49,383 nucleotides of DNA, taken from NCBI GenBank assembly GCA_037142915.1, contig JBAWZR010000001.1, positions 1 to 49,383 of the forward strand, given 5' to 3'. Shown here in pieces: positions 17,082 through 41,367 of the stretch (position 1 is the stretch's first letter; each line of letters starts with the position of its first letter). This stretch comes from Candidatus Moraniibacteriota bacterium (GTDB lineage: Bacteria > Patescibacteriota > Minisyncoccia > Moranbacterales > UBA1568). The notes below the pieces were generated by a model. It made no database searches. It was not told the DNA's origin and saw only the letters and a program-made list of their open reading frames with translations. A program made the position numbers and the translations under genes.

Positions 17082-17158
17082 GGGTGATTAGCTCAGTTGG
17101 TTAGAGCGCGACACTGATAATGTCGAGGTCTGAGGTTCGAATCCTCAATCACCCACCA
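17082..17158 (+). tRNA. tRNA-Ile (anticodon GAT), CCA encoded
   Basis: Cloverleaf read by eye: acceptor GGGTGAT/ATCACCC, D arm GCTC...GAGC, anticodon arm CGACA-CTGATAA-TGTCG, T arm with GGTTCGAATCC, and 3' ACCA. Confidence 0.95.
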
Positions 17159-17183
17159 TCTGAGAGAGTAGAGACAATGTGTT

Positions 17184-17437
17184 TATATATCGCTGGGTAG
17201 AGCAGGACTCGATAAGTCAGCTCGTATAGGAACAGTTGAGAAAGTAGAATCGTTGTGTTTCAGGAAAGTATATATCGTGAGACAGAGCAGGGTCTATGGT
17301 GACAGCTCGTACGGGGACAGTATTAGAAGGAAAGTTTTGTGTTTTGTGAGAATATATATCGCGGGGTAGAGCAGGACTCGATAAGTCAGCTCGTATAGGA
17401 ACAGTTGAGAAAGTAGAATCGTTGTGTTTCAGGAAAG
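17184..17437 (+). repeat. three tandem 84-85 nt pseudo-units, each starting with TATATAT plus the 5' acceptor/D-arm sequence of the downstream tRNA-Met
   Basis: Units are 17184-17268, 17269-17352 and 17353-17437. Units 1 and 3 differ by one base as read (cgcTgggtag vs cgcGgggtag). Unit 2 is diverged. All share TATATATCG..G..AGAGCAGG...AGCTCGTA with the true tRNA at 17445. None has a matching 3' acceptor strand. Confidence 0.8.
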
Positions 17438-17444
17438 TATATAT

Positions 17445-17518
17445 CGCGGGGTAGAGCAGTCTGGCAGCTCGTCTGGCTCATAACCAGGAGGTCGTGGGTT
17501 CAAATCCCACCCCCGCAA
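17445..17518 (+). tRNA. tRNA-Met (anticodon CAT), initiator-like
   Basis: CGCGGGG...CCCCGCA acceptor with a C1/A72 mismatch (bacterial initiator hallmark). Anticodon loop CTCATAA. T arm GTGGG-TTCAAAT-CCCAC. No CCA encoded. The anticodon stem has only two of the usual three G-C pairs next to the loop. Confidence 0.9.
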
Positions 17519-17617
17519 CAAAGAGAAAAATCGAAACGGGGGAGCGAACCAACTGCTTGGTTCGCGTTGGGATTTGAAGGGGTGGCGCGTCTCGCGCGAC
17601 AACCCAGGCCTGGAGGG

Positions 17618-17636
17618 AAATCCCACCCCCGCAACA
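17618..17636 (+). repeat. 19-nt direct repeat of the tRNA-Met 3' end (copy of 17502-17520)
   Basis: AAATCCCACCCCCGCAACA occurs at 17502-17520 (T arm/acceptor of the tRNA) and again at 17618-17636, separated by 97 nt. Confidence 0.85.
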
Positions 17637-17648
17637 TTTATAGTATTT

Positions 17649-17722
17649 GGCAGGGTAGCTCAGCTGGTTAGAGCACAGCCTTCATAAGGCTGGGGTCGTG
17701 GGTCCGAGTCCCACCCCTGCTA
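17649..17722 (+). tRNA. tRNA with CAT anticodon (elongator Met or Ile2/lysidine type)
   Basis: GGCAGGG/CCCTGCT acceptor (G1-U72), D arm GCTC...GAGC, anticodon arm CAGCC-TTCATAA-GGCTG, T arm GTGGG-TCCGAGT-CCCAC. Confidence 0.9.
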
Positions 17723-17729
17723 CAAAATT

Positions 17730-19577: not shown

Positions 19578-19651
19578 GGACTGGTAGCTCAGTTGGTTAG
19601 AGCACTACCCTGTCACGGTAGGGGTCGCGAGTTCGAGTCTCGTCCAGTCCG
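19578..19651 (+). tRNA. tRNA-Asp (anticodon GTC)
   Basis: GGACTGG/CCAGTCC acceptor, anticodon arm CTACC-CTGTCAC-GGTAG, T arm GCGAG-TTCGAGT-CTCGT. Confidence 0.95.
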
Positions 19652-19660
19652 CATCGATTA

Positions 19661-22104: not shown

Positions 22105-22138
22105 GAGAGAAAACACACATAATCAGCCTCATAAGGGG

Positions 22139-22304
22139 CTGTTTTTGTTTTACTTCTGCAAAAATACGGTATAGAATAGGGGTAAGAGATTTTGAATTCC
22201 TCCCCACCTTTGCGAAGGCGGGGATTGAGGGGCGGTTGAGTTGCATGCGGCTCTGATACAACACCATCCCTCCAGTGGGACAACAAAGGGCTATTGAAAG
22301 CCAT
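22139..22304 (+). repeat. module A copy 1 (166-nt core): T-tract, promoter-like hexamers, conserved leader
   Basis: Near-identical (2 substitutions as read) to 30725-30890 and 41110-41275. It is preceded by its own 7-bp hairpin (22124-22141, CAGCCTC-ATAA-GGGGCTG). TTTACT (22149-22154), 17-nt spacer, TAGAAT (22172-22177). It ends 75 nt before ATG 22380. Confidence 0.85.
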
Positions 22305-27321: not shown

Positions 27322-27795
27322 ATGAACGACATACTTTTTGCGAGAAATTTGGTAAAAGGAAAAATCGCGGAAACGGTATTTGCGCAGATGCTCCGACAGT
27401 CGGGCGAGTTTACGGTTTTGGAATTCGGTTATGAGAAAATCATTCCACAGTTTATCCAAAACGGACGGAAGGAAGACAATGAAATGATTGAGACGCTCAG
27501 GACTGCACCGGATTTTGCCGTGATCAATCACAAGACACGGGAAGTTCGTTTGGTCGAGGTGAAATATATGCAATCCTTACGGCAAGAGTATGTCTTGAAA
27601 TTCGCCGAAAGGATGCATACCTCGTGGAATCCGTCTTACTTGTTTGTGGCGACTTTGGACGGGTTTTACTTTGACGAGATCAATGAAATCATAAAAAACA
27701 AAGGGAATATCTCTTCGCTTCAACACCCGCAAATCTCGGAAGAAATTCAAAACCAATACCTGCAGATCATCAGGGATTTCGAAAGAGGAAAATGA
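27322..27795 (+). CDS. small PD-(D/E)xK nuclease-fold candidate
   Basis: KGKIAETVFAQML ... APDFAVIN ... VRLVEVKYM gives an E / PD / ExK arrangement as in YraN/Hjc-like nucleases. 157 aa. Confidence 0.45.
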   Translation: MNDILFARNLVKGKIAETVFAQMLRQSGEFTVLEFGYEKIIPQFIQNGRKEDNEMIETLRTAPDFAVINHKTREVRLVEVKYMQSLRQEYVLKFAERMHTSWNPSYLFVATLDGFYFDEINEIIKNKGNISSLQHPQISEEIQNQYLQIIRDFERGK

Positions 27796-27819
27796 AGATT
27801 ATAATTTTAGTTTCACCTT

Positions 27820-28503
27820 ATGTCCTACCCAAAAGTCCGTTTCAAGATTAGCAAGAAATTCGATAAAGAAATCGGGGTATACTTTCTCAATAATAAGATC
27901 GGGAAGTACGACTTCGGTAAGGACCGGATTATTAGCGAACACCCTGTTTTTTCGAAGTGGCGAAAATTGAGCGAAGAGGATTTGTGGAAACAGGTTAATC
28001 CGTATGTTGACCGATACTATATTGAACATCAAGCGGAGATCGAATCCTCTTTGGTTGCTATGCAGGTGATATGGGATGCAATTGCCGAGCGGTACTTTCA
28101 AGAGATTGAAAAACTTTTCGGGTCGGTGTCTTTTTATCGTACCAAGACAATTACTGCGCATCTCTCGATTTTCAAGTGTGGGGTGATTGAGGATAATCTG
28201 CGCGGTTTTCAGATTTGGTATAAGACGGAGAGCGAGCCGGATGAGGTGCGTCGGCATATAGCGCACGAGGTATTGCACTTTTACTATTACGCTTACTTGA
28301 AGAAAATGAAGCAAGAAAAACTGCTCGAAAATTGGGATGCGACAGAGATTTTCAATCGAATCATTTTGAACCTCCCACAGTTTAAAGCCTTGACAGGAAA
28401 GGAAGAAATAGGCTATAGTATGCACACTAGAAGCCTCCCGAAATATCGGAAGCTCTGGCAGTCCTCGTCGAACCTTGACGAGTATTTGAGTAAACTTGGC
28501 TGA
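27820..28503 (+). CDS. hypothetical protein with HExxH motif (putative zinc metallopeptidase)
   Basis: RRHIAHEVLHFYYYAY is the only recognisable motif. 227 aa. Its stop is 15 nt before the Cys-peptide start. Confidence 0.4.
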   Translation: MSYPKVRFKISKKFDKEIGVYFLNNKIGKYDFGKDRIISEHPVFSKWRKLSEEDLWKQVNPYVDRYYIEHQAEIESSLVAMQVIWDAIAERYFQEIEKLFGSVSFYRTKTITAHLSIFKCGVIEDNLRGFQIWYKTESEPDEVRRHIAHEVLHFYYYAYLKKMKQEKLLENWDATEIFNRIILNLPQFKALTGKEEIGYSMHTRSLPKYRKLWQSSSNLDEYLSKLG

Positions 28504-28518
28504 ATGGAGGAAAATCCT

Positions 28519-28662
28519 ATGCCTAAGTCATTTGTTGTACCGGGTCAAGCGGCGTTTGACGCCCTGTTGCCCCAAAAAGCCCCCACTACCTCAGTCACCG
28601 GCCGTTGCGGCATGTGCTCAGGGCGTTGTGGCAAGTCGGCACCGAGGCGCGTAAAGCGGTAA
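28519..28662 (+). CDS. 47-aa Cys-rich peptide (candidate RiPP precursor)
   Basis: GGAGG lies 8 nt upstream of the ATG. Sequence is MPKSFVVPGQAAFDALLPQKAPTTSVTGRCGMCSGRCGKSAPRRVKR, with three Cys in GRCGMCSGRCG. It is directly upstream of a radical SAM/SPASM gene and is not in the ORF track (below 60 aa). Confidence 0.5.
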   Translation: MPKSFVVPGQAAFDALLPQKAPTTSVTGRCGMCSGRCGKSAPRRVKR

Positions 28663-28705
28663 GGGCGTATTAACGCTCAGGAAGTATGGCCATACTGACT
28701 GGCAT

Positions 28706-28737
28706 GGCGGGGGAGACTTTGTTTCCCTCGCCATTTT
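28706..28737 (+). terminator. hairpin between peptide and radical SAM gene (attenuator candidate)
   Basis: GGCGGGGGA-gactttgtt-TCCCTCGCC (9 bp, one G-U), then ATTTT. The T-tract is weak. Confidence 0.4.
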
Positions 28738-28766
28738 CATAGCACATTACAAATTGAAGGAGAACA

Positions 28767-30125
28767 GTGATGATTTTTTCGCGCTATTTAAGAACTTTAG
28801 AACGAAGCGGAACAATGGCAGTCTTTCACGCTTTGAAACCCATTCCCGCTTTTGTGGACACGACCGCATGGCAGAACTTCTGTCAGTCAATGGATGACGA
28901 AGCTCTGCGTTCGTGGCTCGATGGGCAGGGGTTATTAGTGGAAAGTGAGGTTGAAGACGATTTGTTTCGTGATGCGATTATCGAGGAAACTTTGACGAAG
29001 CGGATGATGTCGATTCTGTACTTGGTACTGACGAAGGCATGCAATTTTCGATGTCGCCAATGCTTCCAACCCGAGCGCCATCCACAAGATCATCTTGAAC
29101 TGGCGGGGGCGGCTTCGTTAATGACCAAAGAGACGGCGATGCTTGGCATCGACGCTTTTGCGCGTCATCTCAATGAGTCTGAGGCAGACGGTTTGGAACC
29201 GCAGATTTATTTCTACGGTGGTGAGCCTTTGTTAAATTGGGATGTATTGGTGGATGCCGTTGAGTATGTCGAGTTGTTGCGTGGTCGAGAACTACCCGAG
29301 GAGATCGGCTTTGTCGTGATTACCAACGGGTCGCTCGTGGATCATGAAAAGGCGGACTTCTTCGCCCGACATAATATCGGAGTCGGGTTGTCGATAGATG
29401 GGCCGAAAGAGAAAAACGATGCTTTCCGTATTTTGGCCCATGGTCAAGGAACTTACGACAAGATTGTTTCAGTTTTGCGTATCCTCCAAGAGCATAACGT
29501 CGGCGTGACACTTTCTATCACCATCAATCCAAATATAGCTAACGACCTGCCAGGGATTATCCAGTGGGCGAAAGAAGAACTCGGTGTCGATTCTGTCAGC
29601 TTCAATATGGTTGGCGGAGGCAGTTACGCTCATACCGGTGCCGAGTTTTCTTTGGAAGCATATAACGATATGGTGGCGACTGGTTTGGTGGAAGCTTATC
29701 AATTGGCACGGAACATCGGATTACACGAAGATCGTGTTGGTAGAAAGGCGGAGGACTTCATTTACCATTCGTTCAAGGCGGTCGATTGTGGCGCAGTCAA
29801 TAATCAGTTGGTTATTCAGCCAGACGGATTGATTGCCTTCTGTCACGCTTCAACCGAGTACAATGTCGGGTCGGTGCGGGATCCCGAGTTTCGGATTTTC
29901 GGACACCCGGCCATCCAAGCATGGGAAGATGTTTTACCGATTCACAATCCGAAGTGTCAAAGTTGTCCGGCAATGTCCATTTGCGGGTACGGTTGTTTCC
30001 ATCATATGTTGGAATTGGAGCGTCCGCTCGCAGATGGAGACGACCAGTTTTGCTTACATACGAGGCGAGTCATGGACTTTCTCGTGTGGGATTTGCTGGC
30101 GCAATCGCAACAGCAGGAAGAGTAA
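28767..30125 (+). CDS. radical SAM enzyme with C-terminal SPASM-type auxiliary cluster domain
   Basis: LTKACNFRCRQCF contains the CxxxCxxC motif. The C-terminus CQSCPAMSICGYGCFH is SPASM-like. The start is GTG 28767 or ATG 28770, after GAAGGAG. Confidence 0.85.
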   Translation: MMIFSRYLRTLERSGTMAVFHALKPIPAFVDTTAWQNFCQSMDDEALRSWLDGQGLLVESEVEDDLFRDAIIEETLTKRMMSILYLVLTKACNFRCRQCFQPERHPQDHLELAGAASLMTKETAMLGIDAFARHLNESEADGLEPQIYFYGGEPLLNWDVLVDAVEYVELLRGRELPEEIGFVVITNGSLVDHEKADFFARHNIGVGLSIDGPKEKNDAFRILAHGQGTYDKIVSVLRILQEHNVGVTLSITINPNIANDLPGIIQWAKEELGVDSVSFNMVGGGSYAHTGAEFSLEAYNDMVATGLVEAYQLARNIGLHEDRVGRKAEDFIYHSFKAVDCGAVNNQLVIQPDGLIAFCHASTEYNVGSVRDPEFRIFGHPAIQAWEDVLPIHNPKCQSCPAMSICGYGCFHHMLELERPLADGDDQFCLHTRRVMDFLVWDLLAQSQQQEE

Positions 30126-30166
30126 TCGGCAACATAAGCTTCAACGAGAGCAGTGTATAATAGAGA

Positions 30167-30204
30167 CCTTGGTTTTTCGCAAGAAAGACCAGGGCTCTTT
30201 TTTT
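30167..30204 (+). terminator. strong intrinsic terminator
   Basis: 12-bp stem CCTTGGTTTTTC-GCAA-GAAAGACCAGGG (two G-U pairs, GNRA loop) followed by CTCTTTTTTT. Confidence 0.75.
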
Positions 30205-30411: not shown

Positions 30412-30591
30412 CATTTAGTGAAAAAACAGTTTCTCTGAAAAACAAAAACCCCTTGCGGGGAAGCTGCCCAAAAGACTTGTATCGTCTCGACTCTAGCCAA
30501 CCGATGGATGGGAACATCGAGAACAGTCTCTCAAGGACTTATGCCTATCGTTAGTATATGAGATATCGGGAAATTTAGCAAGAAAAATCAC

Positions 30592-30890
30592 AAAAAGAAG
30601 CTTTTATAAAAGAAAAAATGAAGATTAACTTTTGGGGTATCCTCTGGTAAACAAATAGTGGCTAAATAAATTCCAACCTTGTCCAAAATTTCCGGCCATT
30701 CGGAACGAGCAGTCGCGCAAGCGTCTGTTTTTGTTTTACTTCTGCAAAAATACGGTATAGAATAGGGGTAAGAGATTTTGAATTCCTCCCCACCTTTGCG
30801 AAGGCGGGGATTGAGGGGCGGTTGAGTTGCATGCGGCTCTGATACAACACCATCCCTCCAGTGGGACAAGAAAGGGCTCTTGAAAGCCAT
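30592..30890 (+). repeat. module A copy 2 (299-nt long form)
   Basis: 30592-30890 aligns with 40977-41275, with a few mismatches in the first 50 nt. It contains hairpin CAGTCGC-GCAA-GCGTCTG (30710-30727) plus a T-tract, TTTACT (30735-30740), 17-nt spacer, TAGAAT (30758-30763), and leader hairpins at 30788-30809 and 30824-30839. It ends 79 nt before ATG 30970. Confidence 0.85.
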
Positions 30891-30969: not shown

Positions 30970-32556
30970 ATGACAAATAAAAAATCAAGTTCTAGTATGA
31001 CCAAAGAGCAGGAGCGTTCAGAGCTCCATCGTGCTATCTGGCAGATTGCCAATGACTTGCGCGGGAGCGTCGATGGTTGGGATTTCAAACAGTATGTACT
31101 CGGGGTGCTTTTTTATCGCTTCATTAGTGAGAATCTGACCAATTATATCAACGCTGATGAGCGTCGCGCAGGTAAAAATGATTTTGATTACAGTGCGCTT
31201 TCCGACAAAGAAGCTGAGTTTGGCCGAACTGATACGGTCAAAGAGAAGGGTTTTTATATTCTCCCGAGCGAGCTGTTCATCAATGTCCGCAAGAATGCCC
31301 GTAATGATGCCAACCTAAACGAAACACTTACTGCCGTTTTTCGTAACATTGAAAGTTCCGCCAGAGGTACTGAAAGCGAGCCTGATCTCAAGGGTTTATT
31401 TGATGATCTTGATGTAAATTCTAATAAACTGGGAAGCACGGTAGAGAAACGAAATCAGAGACTCACGAAACTCTTTGAATCTATTGGCGACCTTCGTCTC
31501 GGTGATTACGCCGACAACACTATCGATGCTTTCGGTGATGCGTATGAGTTCTTGATGACGATGTATGCCTCCAATGCAGGGAAGTCGGGTGGTGAATTTT
31601 ATACCCCGCAGGAAGTAAGCGAGCTCTTGGCCGAGATCACCACGGTTGGCAAGACAGAAGTGAACAAAGTCTATGACCCCGCTTGCGGTTCGGGATCACT
31701 GCTTCTCAAGTTCGCCAAAGTACTCGGCAAGGAAAACGTGCGCCAAGGTTTCTACGGGCAGGAGATCAACCTCACTACCTACAACCTCTGCCGTATCAAT
31801 ATGTTTTTGCACGACATCAACTATAATAATTTCGACATCGCTCACGGTGATACACTCATAGATCCAAAGCACTGGGATGATGAACCGTTTGACGCTATCG
31901 TTTCCAATCCGCCATATTCTATCCGATGGGAGGGCGACGCTAATCCGCTTCTGATCAATGATCCGCGTTTTTCACCTGCGGGAGTGCTTGCGCCAAAGAG
32001 TAAAGCTGACCTCGCCTTTACGATGCATATGCTCTCGTGGCTCTCGACGAGCGGCACGGCGGCGATTGTTGAATTTCCCGGCGTTCTCTATCGTGGCGGT
32101 GCGGAGGGTAAAATAAGAAAGTATCTGGTAGATAACAACTACATCGATGCGGTCATCCAGCTCCCACCCGATCTCTTCTTTGGTACGACTATCGCGACCT
32201 GTGTCATCGTGATCAAAAAGAGCAAGAAGGATAATAAGACGCTCTTTATTGATGCTTCTGCTGAGTTTGTGCGAGGGGGTAACAAAAATAAATTGAGCGA
32301 GGGCAATCGTCTCAAGATTTTAGATGCATTCAGTACTCGCAAAGATGCAGAATATTTTGCCAAGCTGGTAGATAACAAGACTATTGCCGATAATGACTAC
32401 AATATCGCCGTATCCAGCTATGTTGTGGGTGAAGATACTCGCGAAGTAGTGGATATTACAGAACTCAATATAAAAATCACCAAGATTGTCGCCAGACAAA
32501 ATGAACTCCGCACGGCGATTGATGAAATTGTGGCAGATATTGAGGGGACAAAATAA
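30970..32556 (+). CDS. hsdM: Type I restriction-modification system, DNA methyltransferase subunit
   Basis: HsdM N-terminal domain (LHRAIWQIANDLRGSVDGWDFKQYVLGVLFYRFISE), SAM motif VYDPACGSGSLLL, and catalytic SNPPYS. The start could also be ATG 30997. Confidence 0.95.
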   Translation: MTNKKSSSSMTKEQERSELHRAIWQIANDLRGSVDGWDFKQYVLGVLFYRFISENLTNYINADERRAGKNDFDYSALSDKEAEFGRTDTVKEKGFYILPSELFINVRKNARNDANLNETLTAVFRNIESSARGTESEPDLKGLFDDLDVNSNKLGSTVEKRNQRLTKLFESIGDLRLGDYADNTIDAFGDAYEFLMTMYASNAGKSGGEFYTPQEVSELLAEITTVGKTEVNKVYDPACGSGSLLLKFAKVLGKENVRQGFYGQEINLTTYNLCRINMFLHDINYNNFDIAHGDTLIDPKHWDDEPFDAIVSNPPYSIRWEGDANPLLINDPRFSPAGVLAPKSKADLAFTMHMLSWLSTSGTAAIVEFPGVLYRGGAEGKIRKYLVDNNYIDAVIQLPPDLFFGTTIATCVIVIKKSKKDNKTLFIDASAEFVRGGNKNKLSEGNRLKILDAFSTRKDAEYFAKLVDNKTIADNDYNIAVSSYVVGEDTREVVDITELNIKITKIVARQNELRTAIDEIVADIEGTK

Positions 32557-40976: not shown

Positions 40977-41275
40977 AAAAAGAGGCTTTTATAAAGGAAA
41001 AAATGAAGATTAACCTTTAGGGTATCCTCTGGTAAACAAATAGTGGCTAAATAAATTCCAACCTTGTCCAAAATTTCCGGCCATTCGGAACGAGCAGTCG
41101 CGCAAGCGTCTGTTTTTGTTTTACTTCTGCAAAAATACGGTATAGAATAGGGGTAAGAGATTTTGAATTCCTCCCCACCTTTGCGAAGGCGGGGATTGAG
41201 GGGCGGTTGAGTTGCATGCGGCTCTGATACAACACCATCCCTCCAGTGGGACAAGAAAGGGCTCTTGAAAGCCAT
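40977..41275 (+). repeat. module A copy 3 (299-nt long form)
   Basis: Aligns to 30592-30890 and, for the core 41110-41275, to 22139-22304. TTTACT 41120-41125 and TAGAAT 41143-41148. It ends 92 nt before ATG 41368. Confidence 0.85.
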
Positions 41276-41367
41276 CCGCATCGGGGAGCGCAAGGCGAGA
41301 AGGTATCGCAAGGAGGATATTCTGAAGATGATTGAGGATAAATAAAAACAAAATATATTATATTACT

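What the first reader, a model, noticed from the sequence alone, without database searches (positions are those of the whole stretch)
28506..30204. 47-aa Cys-rich peptide plus radical SAM/SPASM enzyme: RiPP-like pair inside the defence island
- MPKSFVVPGQAAFDALLPQKAPTTSVTGRCGMCSGRCGKSAPRRVKR has a strong RBS. It has a leader-like N-part, a C-x2-C-x3-C core and a basic tail.
- A hairpin separates it from a CxxxCxxC radical SAM gene with a SPASM C-terminus, followed by a strong terminator.
- SPASM enzymes commonly install thioether or other crosslinks on such peptides (sactipeptide/ranthipeptide-like logic).
- The pair looks GC-richer than its neighbours.
- The peptide starts only 15 nt after the HExxH gene, which could be the leader peptidase rather than part of the upstream operon.
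Basis: partly seen in the sequence, partly recalled or inferred. Interest (0 to 1): 0.65.

Follow-up and report, generated by a model that had tools for sequence, protein, structure and literature searches.

The report
Cys-rich peptide, radical SAM, zincin cassette
A real and conserved three-gene module (a 47-residue cationic Cys-rich precursor peptide, a radical SAM/SPASM enzyme and a previously unclassified HExxH metalloenzyme) that looks like an uncharacterised peptide natural-product pathway, found mostly in ultra-small Patescibacteria and sitting here among defence genes probably by chance.

Summary
The peptide ORF (28519-28662), a hairpin, the rSAM/SPASM gene (28770-30125) and a terminator are all present.

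Comparative data support the RiPP reading and extend it to three genes.
- Every one of 13 distinct orthologous loci carries the same peptide family, with core G-[RK]-C-G-x-(C)-S-G-R-C...K-S-A-x-R-R and leader FVVPxQxxFxAL.
- Each also carries the upstream 227-aa HExxH protein, in four different gene orders and in unrelated neighbourhoods.
- Invariant peptide residues are encoded by 2-5 synonymous codons.
- DNA homology to relatives covers exactly 27817-30099.

The enzyme has an RRE-like N-domain, CxxxCxxC and a 7-Cys SPASM domain. It is closest to thioether-forming maturases (CteB; TIGR04136, PapB, QhpD) but falls below every curated cut-off.

The HExxH protein has invariant H149/E150/H153/E176/Y199, a gluzincin-type motif. 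Its AF2 model is confident but has no significant structural neighbour, and it matches no Pfam or NCBIfam family. It is not a detectable aKG-HExxH hydroxylase.

Most likely mechanism: leader-guided thioether crosslinking, then leader removal. The chemistry and the biological role are inferred, not shown. There is no conserved exporter, immunity gene or defence partner. I class it as a new variant of a known kind, of moderate interest.

The parts
27820..28503 (+). 227-aa HExxH protein. It is a new zincin/gluzincin-like family with no Pfam or NCBIfam model. It is the putative leader peptidase or a tailoring metalloenzyme.
   Evidence: H149, E150, H153, E176 and Y199 are invariant or nearly so in 38-41 homologues down to 19% identity. 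AF2 gives pLDDT 93.8. It is co-conserved with the rSAM. DNA homology to L161 and L164 starts at 27817.
28390..28419 (+). Promoter-like site TTGACA-18-TATAGT (11/12 match), about 100 nt upstream of the peptide start and inside the 3' end of the HExxH gene.
   Evidence: Found. The same element at the same distance occurs in L161, L164, L167 and L174. It overlaps conserved codons (LT...GYS), so its conservation is not independent evidence.
28508..28512 (+). Shine-Dalgarno GGAGG for the peptide.
   Evidence: Seen. SD-like sequences precede the peptide start in 10 of the 11 loci examined; the L174 start coordinate was mis-set in that script.
28519..28662 (+). Precursor peptide of 47 aa. Residues 1-27 form the leader (FVVPxQxxFxAL). 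The core and tail are GRCGMCSGRCGKSAPRRVKR, with net charge +7.
   Evidence: It is conserved in 22 distinct sequences, with G28, C30, S34, C37 and S40 invariant. Invariant residues use 2-5 synonymous codons.
28704..28738 (+). GC-rich 14-bp hairpin plus T-run between the peptide and the rSAM gene. It looks like an attenuator or leaky terminator.
   Evidence: Seen. An equivalent hairpin plus T-run, with a different sequence, is present in all 9 loci that have the order peptide then rSAM.
28770..30125 (+). Radical SAM/SPASM peptide maturase (451 aa from ATG 28770; GTG 28767 is an alternative start). Residues ~1-78 form an RRE-like domain. CxxxCxxC lies at nt 29040-29063 and the SPASM Cys residues at nt ~29787-30053.
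   Evidence: Supported. The AF2 model has pLDDT 92.7. Foldseek finds CteB at E = 4e-20 over its full length, then TigE, ChlB and anSME.
30167..30204 (+). Intrinsic terminator that ends the cassette.
   Evidence: Seen. Homology to L161 and L164 ends at about 30099.

Best explanation
This is a self-contained three-gene RiPP biosynthetic cassette.

Proposed mechanism:
1. The 47-aa precursor is made in excess. It may have its own promoter, and a leaky terminator hairpin lies before the enzyme gene.
2. Its conserved N-terminal leader (FVVPxQxxFxAL) is bound by the RRE-like N-domain of the radical SAM/SPASM enzyme.
3. The enzyme uses 5'-deoxyadenosyl radical chemistry and two auxiliary Fe-S clusters to modify the Cys-rich core G-R-C30-G-x-(C33)-S34-G-R-C37...S40.
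4. The most likely modification is intramolecular thioether (sactionine or ranthionine-type) bridges from the two invariant cysteines.
5. The co-conserved 227-aa HExxH metalloenzyme then most likely removes the leader, releasing a small, rigid, strongly cationic peptide.

Shown here: the genes, their co-conservation, purifying selection on the peptide, the cofactor motifs and the domain architecture.

Inferred: that the peptide is the substrate, the thioether chemistry, the peptidase role, the cleavage site just before G28, and the biological role of the product.
For: Co-occurrence of the three genes
- The peptide, the HExxH protein and the rSAM occur together in 13 of 13 distinct orthologous loci.
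- They appear in four gene orders, including a divergently transcribed peptide, and in otherwise unrelated neighbourhoods.
- Nucleotide homology of the window to L161 and L164 covers exactly the cassette, 27817-30099.

The peptide is a real gene
- The peptide alignment gives 5 invariant residues in 22 sequences.
- Synonymous codon variation is seen at every invariant column, including AGR/CGN and AGY/TCN switches. Window versus L164 shows 15 synonymous and 12 non-synonymous codon differences.
- SD sequences precede the peptide start in 10 of the 11 loci examined.
- A conserved hairpin plus T-run follows the peptide in 9 of 9 loci with that order.

The enzyme
- The CxxxCxxC motif and the 7 SPASM cysteines are invariant in 34 orthologues.
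- Its best curated matches are all peptide maturases: TIGR04136 210 bits, PapB 134, QhpD 131, SCIFF maturase 110, against anSME 98.
- The closest solved structure by sequence and by fold is the thioether-forming CteB, aligned over 459-486 columns including the N-terminal domain.
- The AF2 model shows a three-strand, three-helix N-domain typical of RREs.
- A wider set of ~30%-identical enzymes has analogous leaders (VVPx8LG) and Cys-rich cores (KCGTCACKCACRYNN, LKCGACASC...). Most also have the HExxH partner.

The HExxH protein
- It has invariant HExxH-x22-E plus Tyr.
- The HExxH motif and E176 lie on consecutive helices that follow two beta-strands.
- Its weak hits are consistently to zincin peptidases: DUF5700, DUF3267, SprT, M78, ACE, and the M1 family including the lanthipeptide peptidase EryP.
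Against: - No modification has been observed. The chemistry is argued only from the nearest characterised relatives, which are 17-19% identical.
- The core contains no Asp, Glu or Thr, which are the acceptors used by PapB, QhpD and CteB. The closest orthologue (82% identity) pairs with a 2-Cys peptide. The crosslink pattern cannot be predicted.
- The HExxH protein has no significant structural or sequence neighbour. Foldseek gives E >= 0.9 against both PDB and BFVD.
- An HExxH-plus-carboxylate site can also bind Fe(II) (PMC12636437).
- No exporter or immunity gene is conserved with the cassette.
- In L174/L175 the HExxH gene and the peptide persist without the rSAM. There the peptide has lost its stop codon, so this looks like decay.
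Confidence: 0.72

Rival explanations
1. The cassette is the same, but the HExxH protein is not a protease. It would be a tailoring metalloenzyme, for example an Fe(II)/aKG-type oxygenase that hydroxylates or oxidatively cleaves the peptide, as the aKG-HExxH enzymes ChlH, BpmH and PflC do. Another hydrolase role is also possible.
For: - HExxH proteins next to or fused with rSAM enzymes in RiPP clusters have been shown to be aKG/Fe hydroxylases with a zincin-like fold. PflC even cleaves the backbone oxidatively (PMC12636437; reference to Nat Chem 2024 seen).
- The 2-His-1-carboxylate set H149/H153/E176 is compatible with either metal.
- No significant match to any solved peptidase was found.
Against: - The positive control PflC hits TIGR04267 (aKG-HExxH) at 98.5 bits. 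The window protein and 37 relatives give no hit to that model even at E <= 1.
- hhalign of the family profile against PflC gives 0.66% probability, matching only the HExxH helix.
- No solved aKG-HExxH structure appears among the Foldseek hits shown.
- The hosts are mostly Patescibacteria, which are generally anaerobic fermenters with little TCA metabolism. That last point is general knowledge, not tested here.
Confidence: 0.15
2. The modified peptide is not a secreted antibiotic. It would act inside the producer, like SCIFF (role unknown) or the peptide-derived cofactors PQQ and mycofactocin. Possible roles are redox carrier, metal carrier, or a ligand for nucleic acid or the ribosome. This rival concerns the biological role, not the biosynthesis.
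For: - No transporter, immunity gene or signal peptide is conserved with the cassette in any of the loci.
- The cassette is widespread in genome-reduced Patescibacteria: 20 of the 25 named genome loci with the HExxH partner.
- It is often next to housekeeping genes (aaRS, HIT, DnaJ, ribosomal proteins).
- The core and tail are strongly basic, +4 to +9.
Against: - The cassette is patchily distributed and sits in variable regions, often with defence or TA genes.
- It decays in L174.
- This pattern fits an accessory trait such as an antimicrobial better than an essential cofactor.
- Cationic crosslinked peptides are typical antimicrobials, and general exporters could serve for secretion.
Confidence: 0.3
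3. The cassette is a functional part of the surrounding anti-phage island, for example a defence system that produces a modified peptide effector.
For: - In the window it lies between a PDC-S37/Hhe-like helicase-nuclease, DUF2130 and an REase-like gene upstream, and a type I R-M system downstream.
- Relatives are also often near defence or TA genes: GmrSD and DUF2130 in L164, Zeta toxin and a UvrD-like helicase in L165, a DNA methylase in L166, AbiEii in L169.
Against: - No defence gene is conserved with the cassette across loci.
- L161-163, L167, L168 and L170 have housekeeping neighbours.
- PADLOC gives only a generic rSAM-core match to pVip. The enzyme has RRE and SPASM domains, which viperins lack.
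- The cassette has its own terminator and apparently its own promoter.
Confidence: 0.07
4. The small ORF is a chance ORF, and the enzyme is an anSME-like or other non-RiPP radical SAM enzyme.
For: - The window tail S-A-P-R-R fits the sulfatase motif S-x-P-x-R.
- anSME is among the structural neighbours.
Against: - The peptide is conserved with a synonymous-substitution signature in 22 sequences.
- The motif is not conserved at position 5 (SAHRK, SVERK, SAART, SAPRG).
- No sulfatases are nearby.
- The anSME model scores 98 bits against a cut-off of 349.
Confidence: 0.02

Closest known systems
SCIFF / ranthipeptide systems (CteA-CteB, Tte1186; TIGR03973 + TIGR03974)
   Same: - A short Cys-rich precursor with an N-terminal leader.
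- A maturase with RRE-rSAM-SPASM architecture.
- CteB is the best solved-structure match by sequence (8e-20) and by fold (4e-20, full length).
- A minimal cassette without an exporter.
- The C-G-x-C-x3-C spacing resembles the SCIFF core as I recall it. That is from memory and is a lead, not a test.
   Different: - The enzyme scores 109.8 bits against the 425 cut-off.
- No peptide matches any NCBIfam precursor model at E <= 10.
- The peptide has 2-4 Cys rather than 6, and a long basic tail.
- There is an obligatory HExxH partner.
- The hosts are Patescibacteria rather than Clostridia.
FibroRumin system radical SAM maturase (TIGR04136)
   Same: - It is the best-scoring curated family (210 bits, aligned over residues 56-443).
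- More distant relatives from Bacteroides, Culturomica and Fibrobacter have Cys-rich precursors whose leaders are detected by the same iterated profile.
   Different: - The score is about half of the 400-bit equivalog cut-off.
- Those relatives lack the HExxH partner and have much longer CxC-rich cores.
- I found no literature on that system.
PapB (freyrasin) and QhpD thioether-forming rSAM/SPASM enzymes
   Same: They are the second and third best curated matches (134 and 131 bits). Both make Cys-to-side-chain thioethers.
   Different: Both scores are below the cut-offs (340 and 453). Their acceptors are Asp or Glu, and the conserved G-[RK]-C...C37 motif contains no Asp or Glu; acidic residues occur only in the variable tails of a few members.
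aKG-HExxH peptide hydroxylases (TIGR04267 / IPR026337: ChlH, BpmH, PflC/PosC)
   Same: They are HExxH-motif proteins genetically coupled to RiPP precursors and often to rSAM enzymes. They have a zincin-reminiscent fold (PMC12636437).
   Different: No detectable sequence or profile similarity was found, although the positive control works. The protein here is a stand-alone ~230-aa domain with an HExxH-x22-E-x22-Y signature.
Gluzincin metallopeptidases, including RiPP leader peptidases of the M1 type (AplP/EryP)
   Same: - HExxH followed by a Glu on the next helix, and a conserved Tyr.
- Beta-strands precede the active-site helix.
- The top (non-significant) Foldseek hits are all M1 enzymes, EryP and selecase.
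- A weak local alignment to ACE runs across the strand plus HExxH helix.
   Different: - No hit is significant (E >= 0.9, TM <= 0.33).
- No Pfam model reaches threshold; the best is DUF5700 at 1.3e-3 in 7 of 38 members.
- It is much smaller than M1 or M2 enzymes.
- The family has 516 50%-identity representative clusters and no annotation.

Membership tests
RRE-dependent radical SAM/SPASM RiPP maturase system | CxxxCxxC radical SAM cluster motif | tested here: met
   C92, C96 and C99 are invariant in 34 orthologues. PF04055 scores E = 4.6e-18.
RRE-dependent radical SAM/SPASM RiPP maturase system | C-terminal SPASM domain with the 7-Cys motif for two auxiliary [4Fe-4S] clusters | tested here: met
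   The pattern C341-x12-G-x4-C359 ... C397-x2-C400-x5-C406-x3-C410 ... C429 is conserved. Pfam SPASM scores 21.1 bits against a 21.5 cut-off. Fold alignment to CteB and anSME runs through the C-terminus.
RRE-dependent radical SAM/SPASM RiPP maturase system | N-terminal RiPP recognition element (PqqD-like winged helix) | tested here: met
   The AF2 model has strands 8-13, 16-21 and 24-31 and helices 32-41, 45-53 and 61-75, at pLDDT ~95. Full-length Foldseek alignment to the RRE-containing CteB was obtained. There is no Pfam PqqD hit, so the evidence is structural prediction only.
RRE-dependent radical SAM/SPASM RiPP maturase system | Adjacent, co-conserved small precursor gene with a leader/core organisation | tested here: met
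   Found in 13 of 13 distinct loci. There are 22 distinct peptides with a conserved leader motif and core. A coding signature is present.
RRE-dependent radical SAM/SPASM RiPP maturase system | Demonstrated post-translational modification of the peptide | not testable with these tools
   This requires co-expression and MS/NMR.
FibroRumin system (TIGR04136) | Equivalog score of at least 400 bits | tested here: not met
   The score is 210.3 bits.
SCIFF / ranthipeptide (TIGR03974 maturase, SCIFF precursor) | Maturase at or above 425 bits and a precursor that matches the SCIFF model | tested here: not met
   The maturase scores 109.8 bits. All 12 peptides give no NCBIfam hit at E <= 10.
PapB-type ranthipeptide | Maturase at or above 340 bits and Cys-X3-Asp/Glu motifs in the core | tested here: not met
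   The maturase scores 134.3 bits. The conserved G-[RK]-C...C37 motif has no Asp or Glu; acidic residues appear only in the variable tails of a few members.
Sactipeptide | Cys sulfur to alpha-carbon thioether bridges | not testable with these tools
   Only analogy is available. RumMC, the only curated sactipeptide-maturase model among the hits, scores 84 bits, far below its cut-off.
Anaerobic sulfatase maturase (anSME) | TIGR03942 at or above 349 bits, a sulfatase substrate gene nearby, and a C/S-x-P/A-x-R target motif | tested here: not met
   The score is 98.5 bits. No sulfatase is in any of 10 neighbourhoods. The S-A-P-R-R in the window fits the motif, but position 5 is not conserved.
aKG-HExxH peptide beta-hydroxylase (TIGR04267 / IPR026337) | Match to the family model | tested here: not met
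   None of 38 family members hits the model at E <= 1. The control PflC scores 98.5 bits. hhalign probability is 0.66%.
Zincin / gluzincin metallopeptidase | HExxH on a helix plus a third ligand Glu on the following helix | tested here: met
   H149 and E150 are invariant and H153 is present in 39 of 41. E176 is invariant, and Y199 is present in 40 of 41. The relevant helices are 140-162 and 172-183.
Zincin / gluzincin metallopeptidase | Significant sequence or fold similarity to an established peptidase family | tested here: inconclusive
   The best Foldseek E is 0.93, although the top 29 hits are all M1 gluzincins or selecase. Pfam gives only sub-threshold zincin hits. The PDB profile search gives ACE at E = 0.06.
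Known anti-phage defence systems (PADLOC) | Match of the cassette proteins to a defence-system model | tested here: not met
   Only a generic rSAM-core match to pVip was found (E = 2.6e-14, residues 86-264). Nothing was found for the peptide or the HExxH protein.

The most novel reading that the evidence does not exclude
The cassette would define a Patescibacteria-centred RiPP class with two unusual properties.

- Its product, a 16-30-residue crosslinked and highly basic peptide, would be made without any dedicated exporter or immunity gene. It would act inside the cell, or on the host or phage, for example by binding nucleic acid or ribosomes.
- Its partner would be a previously unrecognised zincin-fold enzyme family. 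That family has 516 representative clusters and no Pfam, NCBIfam or PDB relative, and it might perform chemistry other than simple leader hydrolysis.
Probability: 0.15. Interest if true: 0.75.

Novelty: new variant of a known kind. Interest (0 to 1): 0.5.

Why it matters
Patescibacteria (CPR) have tiny genomes and very few recognised natural-product pathways. A compact three-gene peptide-modification module that recurs across this radiation is therefore a tractable entry point into their chemistry and their interactions with hosts.

The finding also provides three concrete things:
- A defined, uncharacterised precursor family (G-R-C-G-x-C-S-G-R-C...KSAxRR).
- An rSAM/SPASM clade that falls below every curated cut-off.
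- A confidently folded HExxH enzyme family with no structural or sequence relatives. Its metal and reaction (Zn protease or Fe oxygenase) are an open and directly testable question.

It is still one more candidate in the large and well-populated class of rSAM-dependent RiPPs, so interest is moderate rather than high.

Tried and rejected
- **Genetic code 25 (TGA = Gly) fusing the HExxH protein to the peptide.** The two ORFs are in frame across a single TGA in the window and in L164. I rejected this because TGA ends 11 of 31 window genes, with ATGA overlaps, and the frames differ in L161.
- **An anSME-type S-x-P-x-R target in the tail.** The motif is not conserved.
- **The peptide as an Fe-S or metal ligand through C-x2-C-x3-C.** This is weakened by the 2-Cys variants that pair with the closest enzymes.
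- **Viperin-like defence enzyme.** The PADLOC pVip hit is only generic rSAM-core similarity.
- **aKG-HExxH membership.** Tested with a positive control and not met.
- **Literature searches.** 'FibroRumin', 'TIGR04136', Parcubacteria with SPASM, and Patescibacteria or CPR with ranthipeptide found nothing on this family.
- **Foldseek of the HExxH model.** Nothing significant against PDB or BFVD.
- **Sequence search of PDB for the HExxH protein.** Only noise.
- **Taxon of the window.** It could not be established. The closest named relatives are Parcubacteria MAGs at about 54% identity, and closer ones are unnamed metagenome contigs.
Full report
**1. What is in the sequence**

- A 227-aa ORF (27820-28503) contains IAHEVLH and ends in TGA.
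- Fifteen nucleotides later, preceded by GGAGG, a 47-codon ORF (28519-28662) encodes MPKSFVVPGQAAFDALLPQKAPTTSVTGRCGMCSGRCGKSAPRRVKR.
- A 104-nt spacer follows. It folds into a 14-bp GC-rich hairpin followed by TTTT (28704-28738). The fold has z = -4.4, and 0 of 200 shuffles fold as well.
- The radical SAM gene comes next. I place its start at ATG 28770, because the homologues begin MIFSRYLR. It ends at 30125.
- A strong intrinsic terminator lies at 30167-30204.

GC content is 59.7% for the peptide and 49.2% for the enzyme, against 36-43% for the flanking defence genes. It matches the 45-53% of the pilus, uvrA and other core-like genes elsewhere in the window. The contrast therefore says more about the AT-rich neighbours than about the pair.

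**2. The enzyme**

- Pfam finds Radical_SAM (4.6e-18) and Fer4_12. SPASM is borderline at 21.1 bits against a 21.5 cut-off.
- In an alignment of 34 orthologues (40-82% identity), C92/C96/C99 and seven SPASM cysteines are conserved in the canonical spacing.
- NCBIfam ranks only peptide maturases at the top: FibroRumin TIGR04136 at 210 bits, PapB 134, QhpD 131, the nif11-type 119 and the SCIFF maturase 110. All are far below their equivalog cut-offs. anSME scores 98 bits.
- The nearest solved structure by sequence is CteB.
- An AF2 model (pLDDT 92.7) has an N-terminal domain of three strands and three helices.
- The model aligns over its full length with CteB (E = 4e-20). TigE, ChlB, anSME, SkfB and SuiB follow.

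The architecture is therefore RRE-like domain, rSAM core and SPASM domain. That is the standard layout of leader-dependent peptide maturases.

**3. The peptide is a real, conserved gene**

I recovered neighbourhoods of orthologous enzymes from public assemblies.
- A profile built from the first few upstream ORFs finds the peptide in every one of the 13 distinct loci of the orthologous clade.
- It lies just upstream of the rSAM in most loci. It lies upstream of the HExxH gene in L166, and it is divergently transcribed in L169 and L170.
- A database search added more called copies.

Twenty-two distinct peptides align with an invariant G28, C30, S34, C37 and S40. R/K29 is nearly invariant, the leader motif is F-V-V-P-x-Q-x-x-F-x-A-L, and the basic tail gives a net charge of +4 to +9. 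Three subtypes exist:
- GRCGxCSGRC(A)GKSAxRR
- a 2-Cys form, GRCGGSGRCPSPKSAxRR
- a short form, GRCGKCSGRCAS[IV]xRR

The enzyme closest to the window's (82% identity) pairs with the 2-Cys form. Only C30 and C37 can therefore be essential.

The other lines of evidence for a translated gene are these.
- Every invariant amino-acid column is encoded by 2-5 different synonymous codons, including AGR/CGN and AGY/TCN switches. This is the signature of selection on the protein.
- SD-like sequences precede the peptide start in 10 of the 11 loci examined, including GTG and TTG starts.
- In all nine loci with the order peptide then rSAM, the spacer holds a GC-rich hairpin plus T-run of unrelated sequence. 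This is the arrangement commonly used to over-produce a precursor relative to its enzyme.

**4. The HExxH protein belongs to the cassette**

- A homologue of the 227-aa protein is adjacent to the rSAM in all 13 loci, upstream or downstream.
- Among all 171 sequences held (the window plus 170 loci fetched through the rSAM), 65 carry a homologue, and in 59 of those it lies within 600 nt of the enzyme.
- Of the 25 such loci with organism names, 20 are Patescibacteria/CPR lineages.
- The window's nucleotide homology to L161 and L164 runs from 27817 to about 30099. That span covers exactly these three genes.

The protein has no Pfam, NCBIfam or PADLOC match.
- Across 38-41 homologues down to 19% identity, the only conserved residues are H149, E150, H153, E176 and Y199, plus D15 and F130. 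This is an HExxH-x22-E gluzincin-type signature.
- The AF2 model is confident (pLDDT 93.8). It places HExxH and E176 on consecutive helices that follow two beta-strands.
- Foldseek finds nothing significant in PDB or BFVD.
- The weak top hits are uniformly M1 gluzincins (IRAP, ERAP1, LTA4H), the lanthipeptide peptidase EryP and selecase.
- Sub-threshold Pfam hits among family members are zincin families: DUF5700, DUF3267, SprT and M78.
- An exhaustive profile search finds 516 representative clusters, nearly all single-domain proteins of 220-250 aa.

**5. An important rival for that protein**

Recent work shows that HExxH proteins coupled to rSAM enzymes in RiPP clusters can be Fe(II)/aKG hydroxylases, or even oxidative backbone cleavers, with a zincin-like fold (PMC12636437). 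I tested membership directly.
- PflC, taken from that paper's supplement, hits the family model TIGR04267 at 98.5 bits.
- The window protein and 37 relatives give no hit at E <= 1.
- A profile-sequence hhalign run matches only the 27-column HExxH helix, at 0.66% probability.

Membership is therefore not met. An oxygenase-type function cannot be excluded from sequence, so I give it about 0.15.

**6. The wider family**

An iterated peptide profile also detects precursors next to the ~30%-identical enzymes.
- These have leaders such as VVPxxxxxxxxLG and cores such as KCGTCACKCACRYNN, LKCGACASCxGSPQACK and KCGPCADSCTSG.
- Most sit next to an HExxH homologue.
- Bacteroides-type long CxC-rich precursors are detected too, but without the HExxH partner.

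The window's family is one well-separated branch of a larger superfamily of leader-sharing, Cys-rich peptides. No curated precursor model matches any of them.

**7. Context**

The cassette's neighbours differ in every locus.
- Housekeeping neighbours: aaRS, HIT and MreB in L161; DnaJ/DnaK in L170; ribosomal proteins in L167 and L168.
- Defence or TA neighbours: GmrSD and DUF2130 in L164, Zeta toxin in L165, a methylase in L166, AbiEii in L169.

No exporter, immunity gene, sulfatase or defence gene is conserved with the cassette. In L174/L175 the HExxH gene and the peptide remain, but the rSAM has been replaced and the peptide has lost its stop codon. This is a decaying copy. The defence-island location in the window is therefore best read as residence in a variable region, not as functional coupling.

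**8. Mechanism and confidence**

I commit to a three-gene RiPP pathway with these steps.
1. The RRE-like domain recognises the leader.
2. The rSAM/SPASM enzyme modifies the core around C30 and C37.
3. The modification is most probably thioether bridging. Every characterised near relative (CteB, PapB, QhpD) does this, and the 7-Cys SPASM domain resembles CteB's.
4. The gluzincin-like enzyme removes the leader.

My confidence levels are:
- About 0.72 that this is a RiPP cassette with the peptide as substrate.
- About 0.45 that the chemistry is thioether formation.
- About 0.5 that the HExxH protein is the leader peptidase.

The acceptor residues are unknown, because the usual Asp, Glu or Thr acceptors are absent from the conserved G-[RK]-C...C37 motif. 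The invariant S34 and S40 and the nearly invariant R43 are candidates. The biological role is open: a secreted cationic antimicrobial, or an intracellular SCIFF-like function.

**9. Novelty**

The kind of system is well known: rSAM/SPASM-modified Cys-rich RiPPs. This branch, however, has a precursor family, an enzyme clade and a partner enzyme family that no curated model, solved structure or accessible paper covers. It is also concentrated in Patescibacteria. I therefore rate it a new variant of a known kind, with interest 0.5.

Noticed in passing
window 22138-22304, 30724-30890, 41109-41275 (+): There are three near-identical direct copies of a ~170-215-nt element. Each lies just upstream of a defence operon: the helicase-nuclease at 22275, hsdM#1 at 30970 and hsdM#2 at 41332. 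The element contains a promoter-like TTTACT-17-TAGAAT and a ~120-nt leader. It has no Rfam hit, and its RNA fold is no better than shuffles (z = -0.09). Copies 1 and 2 bracket the 8.6-kb block that includes the RiPP cassette. It could be a shared regulatory region or a recombination substrate.
   Followed up: partly
window 30456-30553 (-): A DUF3800-V RNA motif (RF02964) scores 49.9 bits against a gathering score of 37.4. It lies in the 760-nt gap between the rSAM terminator and hsdM. No DUF3800 gene is evident beside it.
   Followed up: partly
L174 8001-9279 and L175 534-1812: This is a decayed copy of the cassette. The HExxH protein (83% identical) and the peptide are present, but the rSAM gene is absent. 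The peptide ORF has lost its stop (…RRLKRICQNAYHCKMILLM), and an unrelated 158-aa gene follows.
   Followed up: partly
window 27820-28662; L164 5024-5866: The HExxH gene and the peptide ORF are in the same reading frame, separated by a single TGA, in the window and in L164 but not in L161. TGA is an ordinary stop in this genome (11 of 31 genes, with ATGA overlaps), so a read-through fusion is unlikely. It is not excluded as a minor product.
   Followed up: yes
window 17082-17723 and 19578-19652: A tRNA cluster (Ile, Met, Met) and a tRNA-Asp lie immediately before the AT-richer stretch rich in defence genes (~20-47 kb). That stretch holds a PDC-S37/Hhe-like helicase-nuclease, DUF2130, two type I R-M systems and RhuM. 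A reverse transcriptase lies at 427-1938. This may be an island inserted at the tRNA.
   Followed up: no
window 27322-27795 (+): A 157-aa gene has a weak REase-ARP (PF22558) match at E = 1e-4. It sits between DUF2130 and the cassette in the window, but it is absent from the otherwise syntenic L164, where DUF2130 abuts the HExxH gene.
   Followed up: no
L167 3601-4680 (-): A second, shorter rSAM/SPASM gene (359 aa) with small adjacent ORFs lies 1.3 kb from the cassette in a Parcubacteria MAG. It may be another peptide-modification module.
   Followed up: no
window 28767-28814: The public gene call for the rSAM (436 aa, starting at M17) omits 15-16 N-terminal residues that are conserved in orthologues and form the first strand of the RRE-like domain.
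   Followed up: yes
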